The notes beneath the pieces were generated by a model. The model was given only the letters and a program-made list of their open reading frames with translations, was not told the DNA's origin and did no database searches. Both the position numbers and the translations under genes were made by a program. A DNA stretch of 64,000 nt from Candidatus Eiseniibacteriota bacterium. GTDB taxonomy: Bacteria > Desulfobacterota > Binatia > DP-6. Below, piece after piece: positions 11,501-14,947 of this stretch (its first letter is position 1; every line of letters starts with the position of its first letter). The DNA is taken from the NCBI GenBank assembly GCA_035577985.1, contig DATJZY010000029.1:23954-87953 (forward strand), in the 5' to 3' direction.

Positions 11501-11867
11501 CTACAAGGCGTGGCCGTCGCCCTTCGGCCTGCACCCGACCGTGCCCGTGCACGCCCCGCTCGTGATCGACCTGGTCGATCGCCGCCTCGGGCGCGCGGTC
11601 GGAGGCTGCGTCTACCACGTGACTCATCCGGGCGGGCTCGCCTACGAGGCGTTCCCCGTGAACGCCTACGAAGCCGAGACGCGGCGAATCTCGCGCTTCT
11701 GGGCGTGGGGTCACACGCCGGGCGCGTTCTCGCCGCCGGCGTGGGCCGAGCGCCTGGACGCGCACGTGGCACGCGGGAGTCGCGCCACGACGTGGGAACC
11801 GGCGCCCGAGCGTCCCGATCCCGAGCATCCCTGCACCCTCGACCTGCGCAGGCTGCCGCCGTCATGA
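8574..11867 (+). CDS. Large (1,097 aa) transglutaminase-like protein with an N-terminal bacterial transglutaminase domain, a Cys-His-Asp core and a long DUF2126-like C-terminal region.
   Basis: GTG start at 8574, 1 nt after the alpha-E stop. N-terminus [30 protein letters not shown] (Bact_transglu_N-like). Catalytic triad context: [12 protein letters not shown] (Cys), [23 protein letters not shown] (His, Asp). Confidence 0.85.
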   Translation: [1097 protein letters not shown]

Positions 11868-14800
11868 CCCGCCGGATCGCCCTCACGCACACGATCGAGC
11901 AGCGCTTCGCGCGGCCCGTGCAGCTCTCGACGCACTGGCTGCGGCTCCGTCCGGCGCCGCACGCGCGCGCCCGGACGACGGCGTACTCGATGCGCGTCCG
12001 CACCGAGCCGCACTTCCTCAACTGGCTCCGCGATCCGTTCGAGAACCACGTCGCGCGGCTCGACCTGCCCGAGCCGGTGACGCAGCTCGCGATCGACGTC
12101 GCCCTCGTCGCCGATCTGACCGAGACGAACCCGCTCGACTTCCTCGTCGACGAGAGCGCGACACGGCATCCGTTCGACTACGAGCCGCAGCTCCACAAGG
12201 AGCTCGAGCCCTACCTCCGCGTCGAGGACATGGGCGCCGAGCTGACCGCCTGGCTCGCCGCGCTCGAGCGCACGCCACGCTACGTCGTCGAGCGGGTCCA
12301 CGACGTCGCCACGAAGATGCGCGAGCGCTTCGCCGGGACGCCGCCGGAGCTCGCCTGGCTGCTGACCCTCGCCTACCGTGCGCTCGGCCTCGCGGCGCGC
12401 TTCACGAGCGGCTACCGGATCGCGGACGACGCGGCGAGCGTGCACGCGTGGAGCGAGGTCTATCTCCCGGGCGCGGGCTGGATCGGGATCGATCCCAGCG
12501 CCGGCCTCTTCACGACCGAGGCCTGGGTCCCGCTCGCCTGCGCGCCCGAGCCGCTGCGGGCGCAGCCGCTGGTCGGGTTTCGCGAAGCCAGCGACGAGAC
12601 CGTACGTGATGCGATCACCCTCGCCCTCCTCGCGCCGGACGAGCCGTCGTGGCCGTGGGGCGACGACACGTGGGCGTATGTCCGTGCGCTCGGCGCGAAG
12701 GTCGACGCCGACCTCGGCGCCGCCGGCGTGTCGCTCGCGGTCGGCCGCGAGGTGGCGTTCACGTCGGCGATCGAGGCGGGGTCGATCGAGTGGAGCACCG
12801 GCGTACTGGGCGACGCAAAGCGCCGGGCGGGCGGCGCGCTGCTGCGCGCCCTCGGCGCACGCCTCGGGCCCGGCGCGCTCGTGCAGACGGGGTACGGCGA
12901 GTGGTACGTCGGCGAGCCGTCGTTGCGGTGGCGGCTCACGTCGCTGTGGCGCGCCGACGGGCAGCCGCTCTGGCGCGATCCGTCGTTGCTGGCCCAGTCG
13001 CCGGCGAGCCAGATCACCGTCGCCGCGGCCGAGGAGGCGGCCCACGCCCTCGCGCGCGCGCTCGGCGTGGCGCCCGCGTGCGTGATGCCCGCCTACGAGG
13101 ATTCGCTCCATCGTCTATCGCGCAGCGGAAGCGGCAGCGGGAGCGGCACCGTCGCCCCGCCTCCGCTCGAAGACCTGCGCGATCCGGAACGGCGGCGCGA
13201 GCTCGCCGATCGGCTCGCAGAAGCGGGCACGCCCGCCGGGTACGCGCTGCCGCTCGAGCACGACGACACCGAAGATCGCTGGCGAAGTGGCGTCTGGCGC
13301 TTCCGCCGCCGGCGGCTCCATCTCCTGCCCGGGACGCTGCCGATGGGCTTCCGGCTCCCGCTCGAGAGCCTCCCGGCCCACGACGATGCCTCGGTGCCGC
13401 GCACGGCGCTCTGCATCGAGGTGCGCGACGGGCTGCTCCACGTCTTCCTGCCGCCTCTGCCGCGGGTCGAGCACTACCTGGACCTCACGCGCGCGATCGA
13501 GAGCGCTGCGCATGCGATCGGCGTCCCGGTCGCGCTCGAGGGCTACGAGCCGGCCGAGGACCCGCGCCTGCGGCGCGTCGTGGTCGAGCCCGACGCCGGC
13601 GTGCTGCGCGTGACGCTGCCGTCGACCGCGAGCTTCGAGGAGCACGCGGCGCTGCTGGACACCGCGTACGACGAGGCCGCGGAGCTGGGCCTCCATGCCG
13701 AGCGCGCGCTCGCGAACGGCGCCCGCGAGCCGGTCGGCGCGGGAGCCGGCGTCGTGCTCGGCGGGACGACGCCCGACGAGAGCCCGCTTCATCGCCGCCC
13801 GGAGATCCTGCGGGCGCTGGTCACGTGCTGGCAGCGTCATCCGAGCCTCTCCTACTTCTTCGCCACGCGGTTCGTAGGTCCCGGCGGCCGCGCGCCGCGA
13901 CCCGACGAGGGCCGGGACGATGCGCTCTTCGAGCTCGCGCTCGCCCTCGAACGCATGCCGCGGGGCGAGAACGCGCTGCCCTGGATTCCAGACCGCCTGC
14001 TGCGCCACCTGCTCGCCGATCCGGCGGGCGACCTGCGGCGCGCCGAGATCCGCACCGACGCGCTCTTCGATCCTGCGCGCGCGACGCGCCGGCTCGGCCA
14101 GTTGGTCCTGCGGAGCTTCGAGACGCCGCCGCACGCGCGCCTGGCCGCGCTGCAGTCGCTGCTCGTGATGGCGCTGGTCGCCCGCTTCGCGCACGATCCG
14201 CGCCCGCAAGACCTCCGGCGCTGGGGGCCCGCCCTGCACGACCGGTTCCTGCTCCCGTCGCTACTCTGGGACGACCTGGTGGCGGTGCTGCGCGACCTCG
14301 ACGAGGCGGGCTATCCGCTGCAGCCCGAGTGGTTCGCGCCGCTGCTCGCCTTCCACTTCCCCGTCGTCGGCGGCGTGTGCCTGGGCGACGTGGCGCTCGA
14401 GCTGCGGCTCGCACACGAGCCGTGGCCGGTCCTCGCCGAGGAGACCACGGGCGCCGGCGTCGCGCGCTTCGTCGACTCGGCGAACGAGCGGCTCGAGGTG
14501 CGGGCGACCGGGCTGCCGCCGTCGCGGTATGCGCTCGTCTGCAACGGCCGGCGCGTCCCGCTGCGTCCGACCGGCGTGCAGGGCGAGTGGATCGCGGGCG
14601 TCCGCTACAAGGCCTGGAATGCGCCCGCGACCCTGCATCCGACGACGTTCGCCGTCGGCGTCCTCGTCTTCGACCTGATCGACACGTGGAGCGGACGCGC
14701 GATCGGCGGGTGCCGCTTCTTTCCGGCGCGTCCGACCCTGGCGGGACCGGCGGCGCAGCCGCCGGTCGTCGTCGAGCGCGGGGACGGCGAGCGCGGCCGC

Positions 14801-14947
14801 CCTCCCCGCCCCACGCCATCCCCGCTGGTCTGGCAGCGCCCGCGCACGGGCAGCTTCGAGCCCGAGGGCAGCGGCCAGGGCCCCATGACCGTGCCGCCCG
14901 AGGAGATGGTGCCAGGGCACGTGCTCGATCTCACCGCACCTGCATGA
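11864..14947 (+). CDS. Second large (1,027 aa) transglutaminase-like paralog. It is predicted catalytically inactive because the Cys nucleophile is replaced.
   Basis: Its ATG (11864) overlaps the previous stop as ATGA. It is collinear with 8574..11867 ([30 protein letters not shown]...). The homologous nucleophile position reads [10 protein letters not shown] (Pro where the upstream paralog has Cys), while [22 protein letters not shown] (His/Asp) is retained. Confidence 0.8.
   Translation: [1027 protein letters not shown]

What the first reader, a model, noticed from the sequence alone, without database searches (positions are those of the whole stretch)
11864..14947. Second large transglutaminase-like paralog has lost the Cys nucleophile (Cys→Pro) but keeps His/Asp
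Aligning the three transglutaminase cores gives [10 protein letters not shown] (8574..11867), GVCQDFAHLG (17559..18440) and [10 protein letters not shown] (11864..14947). The catalytic Cys position is a Pro in the middle paralog. The downstream His (VHAWSEVY) and Asp (IGIDPSAG) are still conserved, and the ~800-aa C-terminal region is collinear with its neighbour. This is the signature of a pseudo-enzyme kept as a scaffold or partner subunit. It may act with the upstream active copy, for example as a heteromer or substrate-binding component.
Basis: seen in the sequence. Interest (0 to 1): 0.7.

Follow-up and report, generated by a model that had tools for sequence, protein, structure and literature searches.

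The report
Doubly dead enzyme paralog, paired partner
The gene at 11864..14947 is a well-conserved copy of a large two-domain enzyme that has lost the predicted key catalytic residues of both domains and always sits directly behind an intact copy, so it most likely serves as that copy's non-catalytic partner subunit in a widespread bacterial system of unknown function.

Summary
Gene B (11864..14947, 1027 aa) has the same three-domain architecture as its neighbour A (8574..11867). It reads [10 protein letters not shown] where A reads [10 protein letters not shown]. A profile-profile alignment puts Pro160 in the nucleophile column, and no other Cys can substitute. His194 and Asp210 remain.

The loss is not a local accident. 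B belongs to a separate, old clade of 128 sequences. In that clade the Cys column is P54/A30/C21/S15, while all 207 A-type proteins keep Cys-His-Asp.

B-clade proteins have also lost the A-type-invariant polar residues of the C-terminal glutamine-synthetase-fold ligase domain:
- E646 becomes R/K.
- H693 and E810 are absent in every member.
- H685 and H787 become R/K, and K382 becomes E.

B is therefore predicted to be dead in both domains.

B is still under purifying selection (dN/dS 0.15, the same as A). In 12 of 12 genomic contexts it lies immediately downstream of a dedicated, intact A' clade, and in the 11 with DNA the junction is a 4-nt [AG]TGA overlap. In seven contexts no ATP-grasp genes are adjacent. 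A' and B co-diverge (r = 0.88).

The parts
6075..7610 (+). Stand-alone circularly permuted ATP-grasp ligase, first gene of the six-gene cluster. The true start may be about 30 codons further in; other gene calls give 482 aa.
   Evidence: Pfam CP_ATPgrasp_2 E=1.7e-164. GC3 0.97. The orthologue occupies the same position in L001, L087 and L091.
7610..8572 (+). Alpha-E domain protein. The mechanical ORF 5954..8572 is a chimera whose first ~550 codons are off-frame.
   Evidence: Pfam Alpha-E E=3.7e-84. Junction TGATG. GC3 gene model.
8574..11867 (+). A' (1097 aa), the intact large paralog. It has Bact_transglu_N, a TGase core with Cys180/His229/Asp245, and a glutamine-synthetase-fold ligase domain (DUF2126) with all family-invariant polar residues.
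11864..14947 (+). B (1027 aa), the finding. Same architecture as A', but the predicted catalytic residues of both domains are replaced.
   Evidence: AF2 model pLDDT 88.3. Foldseek: 3isr E=1.5e-12, and GS/YbdK/Dop hits. dN/dS 0.149.
12341..12343 (+). Codon of Pro160, the position of the TGase nucleophile (Cys180 in A').
   Evidence: BLASTP, hhalign, column counts: C in 207/207 A-type; P54 A30 C21 S15 in the B clade.
12443..12493 (+). Stretch from His194 (12443..12445) to Asp210 (12491..12493), the retained members of the former TGase triad.
   Evidence: His in 124/128 and Asp in 128/128 of the B clade.
12749..14107 (+). Part of B's ligase-like domain that carries the substituted active-site positions. 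B residue with its A' equivalent: E296 (E332, kept), A298 (T334), E346 (K382), R582 (E646), T584 (N648), R621 (H685), G629 (H693), R725 (H787), V748 (E810).
   Evidence: Column table over 103 single-A, 104 A-partner and 128 B-clade proteins. In the A model these positions lie in or next to predicted strands. Superfamily motifs from PMC2588565.
11864..11867 (+). ATGA start/stop overlap between A' and B (translational coupling).
   Evidence: The same [AG]TGA overlap is present in 11/11 loci with DNA.
14944..17562 (+). Fused circularly permuted ATP-grasp + Alpha-E protein. ATGA overlap with B; the start could be later (15034).
   Evidence: Pfam. Junction. Gene model.
17559..18440 (+). Small transglutaminase-like protein (293 aa) with an intact Cys (GVCQDFAHLG).

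Best explanation
B is a catalytically inert paralog, a pseudoenzyme in both of its domains. [quoted passage not shown]

B is made in a fixed ratio with the intact paralog A' encoded immediately upstream, through translational coupling. It most likely assembles with A' into a hetero-oligomer with one active and one dead subunit type. This would be the descendant of a homo-oligomer formed by the single-copy enzyme in most other bacteria.

In that complex A' would perform both chemistries: ATP-dependent amide-bond formation and thiol-dependent (trans)peptidase activity. B would supply structure and possibly substrate or regulator binding. B keeps the fold, the TGase His and Asp, and several ligase-site Arg and acidic residues. 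Its former metal and nucleotide ligands are replaced, partly by residues of opposite charge.

Shown here:
- Loss of the residues.
- Clade-wide conservation and purifying selection.
- Obligate tandem linkage and co-divergence with a dedicated A' clade.
- The fold assignments.

Inferred:
- That the replaced residues are the catalytic ones. This rests on their invariance in 207 A-type proteins, their position in or next to predicted strands, and resemblance to published superfamily motifs.
- That the two proteins bind each other.
- What the system makes.
For: 1. Catalytic residues. Cys180 becomes Pro160. All 207 A-type proteins keep C/H/D, and at least 98% keep E332, K382, E646, N648, H685, H693, H787 and E810. 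In the 128 B-clade proteins E646 is R89/K35, H693 and E810 are never kept, H685 is R in 92, H787 is R/K in 113, K382 is E in 105, and Cys is kept in only 21.

3. Not a decaying gene. dN/dS is 0.149, against 0.152 for A. The clade has 124/124 invariant residues of its own, such as T23 and D67.

4. Linkage. In 12/12 contexts B follows a large intact paralog, and in the 11 with DNA the junction is a 4-nt overlap. In seven contexts no ATP-grasp genes are adjacent to the pair: L002, L003, L083, L084, L086, L092 and the P0063 context. 26 further contigs carry both proteins, judged by matching contig length.

5. A dedicated partner. The eight upstream partners form an exclusive clade. Their mean identity is 74% among themselves, 57% to single-copy A and 41% to B.

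6. Co-divergence. r = 0.875 over 30 pairs, with 0 of 2000 permutations reaching that value. B diverges 1.57 times faster overall, and about 3 times faster in the TGase core.

7. The canonical cluster elsewhere equals this cluster without B.
Against: - No direct evidence of a physical A'-B complex.
- Mapping of the lost ligase residues onto catalytic positions rests on motif resemblance and predicted strands. hhalign against single YbdK and GlnA sequences gave nothing.
- A-type proteins themselves have ExT rather than the canonical Ex[EH] on strand 1, and no member of the family has been assayed.
- 16% of the B clade keep the Cys and 12% have Ser, so some members could retain TGase-type activity.
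- Window B keeps E296, the equivalent of E332.
- Mirror-tree correlation is expected from co-inheritance alone.
Confidence: 0.7

Rival explanations
1. B is non-catalytic but works on its own, not as a stable subunit of A'. It could be a binding or regulatory protein, for example a decoy, substrate carrier or inhibitor for the ATP-grasp/TGase machinery, or a sensor that uses the remodelled pocket.
For: The loss of catalytic residues and the purifying selection fit this reading equally well. In the window B is also translationally coupled to the downstream ATP-grasp/Alpha-E fusion gene. The charge-reversed pocket (E646 to R/K, K382 to E) could bind a new ligand.
Against: The only invariant neighbour is A'. 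Seven contexts lack adjacent ATP-grasp genes. The 4-nt overlap with A' is universal. A' forms a dedicated clade that is more conserved than single-copy A, which suggests an added constraint such as an interface.
Confidence: 0.15
2. B is still an enzyme. It has been neofunctionalised, with a different set of catalytic residues or a different reaction in one or both domains.
For: His and Asp of the TGase triad are kept in 124 and 128 of 128 members. R743, D745, R776, R788, E790, D794 and E815 of the ligase domain are kept. The clade has invariant residues of its own. Some members have Cys or Ser at the nucleophile position.
Against: The nucleophile column takes P, A, S, T, V, H, N and Y in an order scattered over the tree, which is the pattern of a position that no longer matters. 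No other Cys is conserved. The putative metal and nucleotide ligands are replaced by Arg/Lys or hydrophobic residues in every member. The TGase core is the most relaxed region of the protein. In this subclade about 20 residues next to the nucleophile helix are deleted.
Confidence: 0.1
3. B is a decaying duplicate (pseudogene in progress), or the Cys-to-Pro call is an alignment or sequencing artefact.
For: Lower family scores than A (DUF2126 770 against 1137 bits), deletions in the TGase domain, and a metagenomic source.
Against: The reading frame is intact over 1027 codons with GC3 0.93. dN/dS is 0.149. The same residues occur in a 93%-identical contig from another study. A 128-member clade spans Methylococcales, Chromatiaceae, Aquisalimonas and Polyangiales. 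Three alignment methods agree.
Confidence: 0.02

Closest known systems
[quoted passage not shown]
   Same: Identical domain order and length. All three Pfam domains are found. 41% identity to the intact neighbour. The same folds are predicted. The same operon partners are present (CP ATP-grasp, Alpha-E, small TGase).
   Different: B lacks the TGase nucleophile and the polar residues that are invariant in 207 intact members. It forms a separate clade and never stands alone. The family itself is known only from computation; no member has been assayed, as far as the searched library shows.
CP ATP-grasp / Alpha-E / transglutaminase triad of the Anbu-type operons (Iyer et al. 2009; Fuchs et al. 2017, PMC5666114)
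   Same: The window cluster contains two such modules: 6075..8572 plus the TGase domain of A', and 14944..18440.
   Different: No Anbu peptidase gene was seen in the cluster. Here the first module's TGase is fused to a GS-fold ligase and is duplicated into an active/dead pair.
RloB of Pseudomonas aeruginosa: an inactive transglutaminase domain encoded in an operon with an ATP-grasp protein (PMC12239564)
   Same: A catalytically inactive TGase-like domain is retained and is functionally important in an ATP-grasp-containing operon.
   Different: RloB is a seven-TM membrane protein with a periplasmic domain and no ligase domain. It is not a paralog partner of an active copy, and it belongs to an unrelated subfamily.
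Inactive members of the two folds: erythrocyte protein 4.2 and XPC/Rad4 (TGase fold), lengsin (GS fold)
   Different: These are eukaryotic, single-domain cases and are not paired with an active paralog in an operon.
Pseudoenzyme-partner ('prozyme') paradigm, e.g. trypanosomatid AdoMetDC/prozyme (from general knowledge, not tested here)
   Same: Gene duplication, loss of catalytic residues in one copy, and obligate co-occurrence with the active copy.
   Different: Activation of A' by B is only a hypothesis here.

Membership tests
DUF2126 / Rv2566-type TGase-ligase fusion proteins | Architecture Bact_transglu_N + Transglut_core + DUF2126 in one polypeptide of about 1100 aa | tested here: met
   Pfam: PF08379 5.7e-19, PF01841 3.2e-10, PF09899 4.2e-231.
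DUF2126 / Rv2566-type TGase-ligase fusion proteins | Cys-His-Asp triad in the TGase core (207/207 intact members) | tested here: not met
   Pro160 sits in the Cys column. His194 and Asp210 are present.
DUF2126 / Rv2566-type TGase-ligase fusion proteins | Family-invariant polar residues of the ligase domain (E332, K382, E646, N648, H685, H693, H787, E810 in A numbering) | tested here: not met
   Window B has E, E, R, T, R, G, R, V at these positions, so 7 of 8 are replaced.
DUF2126 / Rv2566-type TGase-ligase fusion proteins | Genomic association with CP ATP-grasp, Alpha-E and small TGase genes | tested here: met
   The same six-gene layout is found in L001, L087 and L091.
Carboxylate-amine/ammonia ligase superfamily (GS, GCS2/YbdK, PafA/Dop) | Glutamine-synthetase fold | tested here: met
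Carboxylate-amine/ammonia ligase superfamily (GS, GCS2/YbdK, PafA/Dop) | Active-site motifs: strand-1 Ex[EH], acidic residues on strands 2 and 3, strand-4 [HD]x[NH], strand-6 Ex[RK]x2D (PMC2588565) | tested here: inconclusive
   Candidate equivalents in A' are GGE332PT, IE646VN, NH693VT and E810LRAFE815. They lie in or next to predicted strands and are invariant. B lacks E646, H693 and E810. The equivalence is by motif resemblance only; no residue-level superposition was possible, and hhalign to YbdK and GlnA failed.
Transglutaminase-like cysteine peptidases (Pfam Transglut_core; e.g. PDB 3isr) | Papain-like TGase fold | tested here: met
   The B model matches 3isr at E=1.5e-12, TM (target) 0.68.
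Transglutaminase-like cysteine peptidases (Pfam Transglut_core; e.g. PDB 3isr) | Nucleophilic Cys at the N-terminus of the core helix | tested here: not met
   Pro160. There is no substitute Cys.
Pseudoenzyme partner subunit of an active paralog | Purifying selection despite loss of catalytic residues | tested here: met
   dN/dS 0.149 against the 93%-identical orthologue. Clade-specific invariant residues exist.
Pseudoenzyme partner subunit of an active paralog | Obligate co-occurrence and co-evolution with the active paralog | tested here: met
   12/12 contexts in tandem, with a 4-nt overlap in the 11 that have DNA. Exclusive A' clade. r = 0.875.
Pseudoenzyme partner subunit of an active paralog | Physical complex with, and functional effect on, the active paralog | not testable with these tools
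   Only single-chain prediction was available. This needs a multimer prediction or co-purification.

The most novel reading that the evidence does not exclude
A' and B form an obligate heteromeric enzyme in which the dead subunit is more than a scaffold. Its former ligase pocket has been rebuilt with reversed charges (E646 to R/K, K382 to E, H685 and H787 to R/K) while keeping the substrate-side Arg and acidic residues. Its Cys-less TGase cleft still carries His and Asp. These sites may now bind the substrate, the product or an effector, and so deliver it to the single active subunit or gate that subunit. This would be a 'prozyme'-type regulator for a still uncharacterised bacterial peptide or metabolite ligation system that is related by fold to the Pup ligase.
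Probability: 0.25. Interest if true: 0.65.

Novelty: new variant of a known kind. Interest (0 to 1): 0.45.

Why it matters
The Rv2566/DUF2126 proteins and their ATP-grasp, Alpha-E and TGase companions are widespread, from Pseudomonas and rhizobia to Mycobacterium tuberculosis. No biochemical function has been established for them in the literature that could be searched.

A natural active/dead pair is useful in three ways:
- It marks which residues matter, because those lost in B are invariant in 207 intact proteins.
- It predicts a hetero-oligomeric quaternary structure.
- It offers tractable isolates that carry the pair, namely Aquisalimonas sp. 2447 and Methylomagnum ishizawai, for co-purification and knock-outs.

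It also matters for annotation. Both genes are currently named 'transglutaminase family protein', which hides the fact that one of them cannot be a transglutaminase-type enzyme or, probably, a ligase.

Tried and rejected
- Alternative nucleophile. I looked for any other Cys in B's TGase part. Only Cys226 exists, it is shared with A, and its column is not conserved in the clade. Rejected.
- Recent local duplicate of A. Rejected, because B is closer to more than 100 database proteins (46-59% identity) than to A (41%).
- B belongs to the second ATP-grasp module rather than to A. Rejected, because the pair occurs without adjacent ATP-grasp genes in seven contexts.
- PDB by sequence: only 3isr, at E = 0.018.
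- NCBIfam: no model matches any of the five proteins scanned.
- PADLOC defence models: none.
- Rfam at gathering threshold on the whole window: nothing.
- Literature. No paper in the library contains 'DUF2126'. Iyer et al. 2009 (PMC3268129), which may describe this family in more detail, is not held. A 2026 preprint that tested Rv2411c and Rv2567 found no activity for the reaction it was tracing. The Rv2569c paper does not discuss a TGase fold.
- The taxon of the window was not determined. The source is ENA metagenome assembly ERZ27256607, contig k141_29559.
- One look-up (P0195) returned nothing.
- Residue-to-residue 3D mapping was not possible, because model coordinates are not exposed.

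
Full report
**1. What is at the coordinates**

The window has about 71% G+C, so mechanical ORF lists are noisy. Third-position G+C, Pfam and orthologous gene calls together give one tightly packed plus-strand cluster of six genes:
- a circularly permuted ATP-grasp gene, 6075..7610
- an Alpha-E gene, 7610..8572
- large protein A, 8574..11867
- large protein B, 11864..14947, which is the finding
- a fused ATP-grasp + Alpha-E gene, 14944..17562
- a small transglutaminase-like gene, 17559..18440

These assignments rest. 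Consecutive genes overlap by 1-4 nt or are separated by one base. The A|B, B|fusion and fusion|small-TGase junctions are all ATGA. The 872-codon ORF 5954..8572 is a chimera of an off-frame stretch and the real Alpha-E gene.

**2. The observation**

A and B are 41% identical and collinear over about 1027 residues.

B Pro160 aligns with A Cys180 in three analyses: BLASTP, multiple alignments of up to 335 homologues, and an hhalign profile-profile comparison of the two clades. His194 and Asp210 are retained.

The only Cys in the TGase part of B is Cys226. It lies after the Asp, A has it too, and its column is variable in B's relatives. A third of the Cys-less relatives have no Cys at all in the core.

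In this subclade about 20 residues just before the nucleophile helix are also deleted. That is why Pfam's Transglut_core model matches B only from profile position 49.

**3. B belongs to an old, separate clade**

A database search with B returned three close orthologues (74-93% identity) and more than 100 proteins at 46-59% identity. All of them are closer to B than A is.

In a neighbour-joining tree these sequences form a clade of 124, later 128. It is separate from the 83 intact proteins recovered from 80 species genomes plus the window and L001-L003.

In the intact ('A-type') proteins the triad is Cys-His-Asp in 207 of 207. In the B clade the Cys column reads P54, A30, C21, S15, plus T, H, V, N and Y. 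These states are interleaved on the tree. This is the pattern of a position that stopped mattering, and it implies repeated independent loss. His (124/128) and Asp (128/128) persist.

**4. The ligase domain is also stripped**

This is the main addition to the finding. Of 267 columns that are at least 97% conserved in A-type proteins, only 130 are kept in at least 90% of the B clade.

The residues below are kept in at least 98% of the 207 A-type proteins. In the 128 B-clade proteins they are replaced as follows:

| A-type residue | State in the B clade (128 proteins) |
|---|---|
| E332 (GGEPTF) | S51 / G25 / E17 |
| K382 | E in 105 |
| E646 (IEVNV) | R89 / K35, never E |
| H685 | R in 92 |
| H693 ([10 protein letters not shown]) | never H |
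| H787 | R or K in 113 |
| E810 (ELRAFE) | hydrophobic, never E |

Window B has E, E, R, R, G, R and V at these positions, and A and T at the T334 and N648 positions.

The fold evidence is as follows:
- AlphaFold2 models are confident. B has pLDDT 88.3 and A has 82.8, both with pTM 0.77.

This agrees with Iyer, Burroughs and Aravind 2008. [quoted passage not shown] They list the superfamily's active-site motifs as strand-1 Ex[EH], acidic residues on strands 2 and 3, strand-4 [HD]x[NH], and strand-6 Ex[RK]x2D.

In the A model, E332, E646, H693 and E810 lie in predicted strands, and H787 lies just before one. E810-L-R-A-F-E815 fits the strand-6 motif. Equating these residues with the metal and phosphate ligands is an inference. 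I could not superpose coordinates, and hhalign against single YbdK and GlnA sequences gave nothing.

The ligase-site losses are universal in the clade, while the Cys loss affects 84% of members and is scattered. The ligase domain therefore probably died first, and the TGase nucleophile became dispensable afterwards.

**5. B is maintained, not decaying**

Against the 93%-identical orthologous contig (L001), dN/dS is 0.149 for B and 0.152 for A. The other four genes range from 0.07 to 0.15. The clade has its own invariant residues, for example T23 and D67 in 124 of 124.

B diverges 1.57 times faster than its partner overall. The TGase core is the most relaxed region, about 3 times faster.

**6. 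B is always paired with a dedicated intact paralog**

I examined twelve contexts:
- the window
- L001, a metagenome contig
- L002, Methylomagnum ishizawai
- L003, Methylolobus aquaticus
- L083
- L084, a Polyangiales MAG
- the P0063 context (gene table only, no DNA)
- L085, whose genes are fragmented by frameshifts
- L086
- L087, a Chromatiaceae MAG
- L091, Aquisalimonas sp. 2447 (complete genome), reached by starting from the upstream protein
- L092

In all twelve the B-clade gene lies immediately downstream of another large DUF2126 gene. In all eleven with DNA the junction is [AG]TGA.

Four contexts share the window's six-gene layout: the window, L001, L087 and L091. L085 appears to share it too, but its genes are fragmented. 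In the other seven the pair has no adjacent ATP-grasp genes. The constant companion of B is therefore the upstream paralog and not the rest of the operon.

The eight upstream partners analysed form an exclusive clade, A'. Their mean identity is 74% among themselves, 57% to single-copy A-type proteins and 41% to B.

A search with A returned about 96 A'-like proteins. 26 of them share their exact contig length with a B-clade hit. Distances among 30 A'/B pairs correlate at r = 0.875, and none of 2000 permutations reached that value. This shows co-inheritance. It does not by itself show contact.

In 80 species-representative loci only one had the tandem pair. 60 had a single intact A followed by the fusion gene and the small TGase, which is the window's cluster minus B.

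**7. Interpretation**

The best explanation is that an ancestral single-copy enzyme, presumably homo-oligomeric, was duplicated. One copy (A') kept both active sites. The other (B) lost first the ligase site and then, repeatedly, the TGase nucleophile.

Translational coupling keeps the two proteins in a fixed ratio, and they most likely form a hetero-oligomer in which B is structural or regulatory. B retains the TGase His and Asp, and it retains R743, D745, R776, R788, E790, D794 and E815. Several former ligands are replaced by residues of opposite charge. This leaves room for a binding role.

I give this explanation about 0.7. The rivals are:
- an independent non-catalytic regulator (0.15)
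- a neofunctionalised enzyme (0.10)
- decay or artefact (0.02, effectively refuted)

What the system produces is unknown. The literature available to me offers only predictions of peptide or amide-bond synthesis, and a negative test of two mycobacterial ATP-grasp homologues for an unrelated reaction.

**8. Comparison with what is known, and novelty**

By architecture B is a member of the DUF2126/Rv2566 family. It fails that family's catalytic signatures in both domains.

I found no description of a conserved, doubly inactive DUF2126 clade paired with a dedicated active clade. No paper in the searchable library mentions DUF2126 at all. However, the most relevant paper, Iyer et al. 2009, could not be read. 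I therefore rate it a new variant of a known kind, of moderate interest. It is a clean, testable pseudoenzyme-partner case in a widespread but uncharacterised system, and not a new principle.

Noticed in passing
window 5954..8572: The 872-codon ORF in the mechanical list is a chimera. Its first ~550 codons are Arg-rich off-frame translation over the real ATP-grasp gene (6075..7610, another frame), and only the last 320 codons (7610..8572) are the Alpha-E gene.
   Followed up: yes
window 18448..21762 (- strand): A 1104-aa protein with no Pfam or PADLOC match is encoded convergently, right after the cluster. A gene of similar size (1096 aa) sits at the same place in the 93%-identical contig L001 (16582..19872, -).
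   Followed up: partly
window 12320..12345 (B residues ~153-160); P0001-P0003: Only the window's subclade of B has an extra ~20-residue deletion directly before the former nucleophile helix. Other B-clade members keep that segment.
   Followed up: partly
window 11840..11858 (A, ...TLDLRR) and 14921..14935 (B, ...VLDLT): Both clades end in a conserved LDL motif (A L1089/D1090, B L1021/D1022/L1023; invariant or nearly so). AF2 models it as a short terminal strand after a long low-confidence linker. Its docking site and role are unknown.
   Followed up: no
B-clade columns equivalent to A E646, K382, H685, H787 (window B R582, E346, R621, R725): The replacements in the dead ligase pocket are not random. 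An acidic residue becomes basic, a basic one becomes acidic, and His becomes Arg/Lys across the clade, as if the pocket were rebuilt rather than simply eroded.
   Followed up: partly
L083 12387..15533: Next to one A'-B pair there is a small TGase gene on the opposite strand and a third, 743-aa protein with a DUF2126 domain only (no TGase domains).
   Followed up: no
L003-L082 (80 species loci): The common cluster in Proteobacteria and other phyla is a single intact A, then the ATP-grasp/Alpha-E fusion, then the small TGase (60 of 80). 24 of 80 also have an unfused ATP-grasp gene within 5 kb upstream. This is the window's cluster without B.
   Followed up: yes
L085 3143..15000: This contig has the same cluster, but nearly every gene is broken into fragments. 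That looks like frameshift errors of a long-read assembly rather than real pseudogenes.
   Followed up: no
window 33858..36098 (+): A single 746-aa protein combines lycopene-cyclase and flavin amine-oxidase/desaturase-type domains (a carotenoid-type fusion).
   Followed up: no
window 23107..26713 (- strand): Three lipid and acyl-CoA metabolism genes lie downstream of the cluster: a WS/DGAT wax-ester synthase (23107..24531), an alpha/beta hydrolase (24535..25443) and an acetyl-CoA hydrolase/transferase (25346..26713).
   Followed up: no
window 41626..54708: Three very large genes (1280, 1499 and 1385 aa; one on the minus strand, two on the plus strand) have unusually high second-position G+C (0.58-0.62). 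They were not examined.
   Followed up: no
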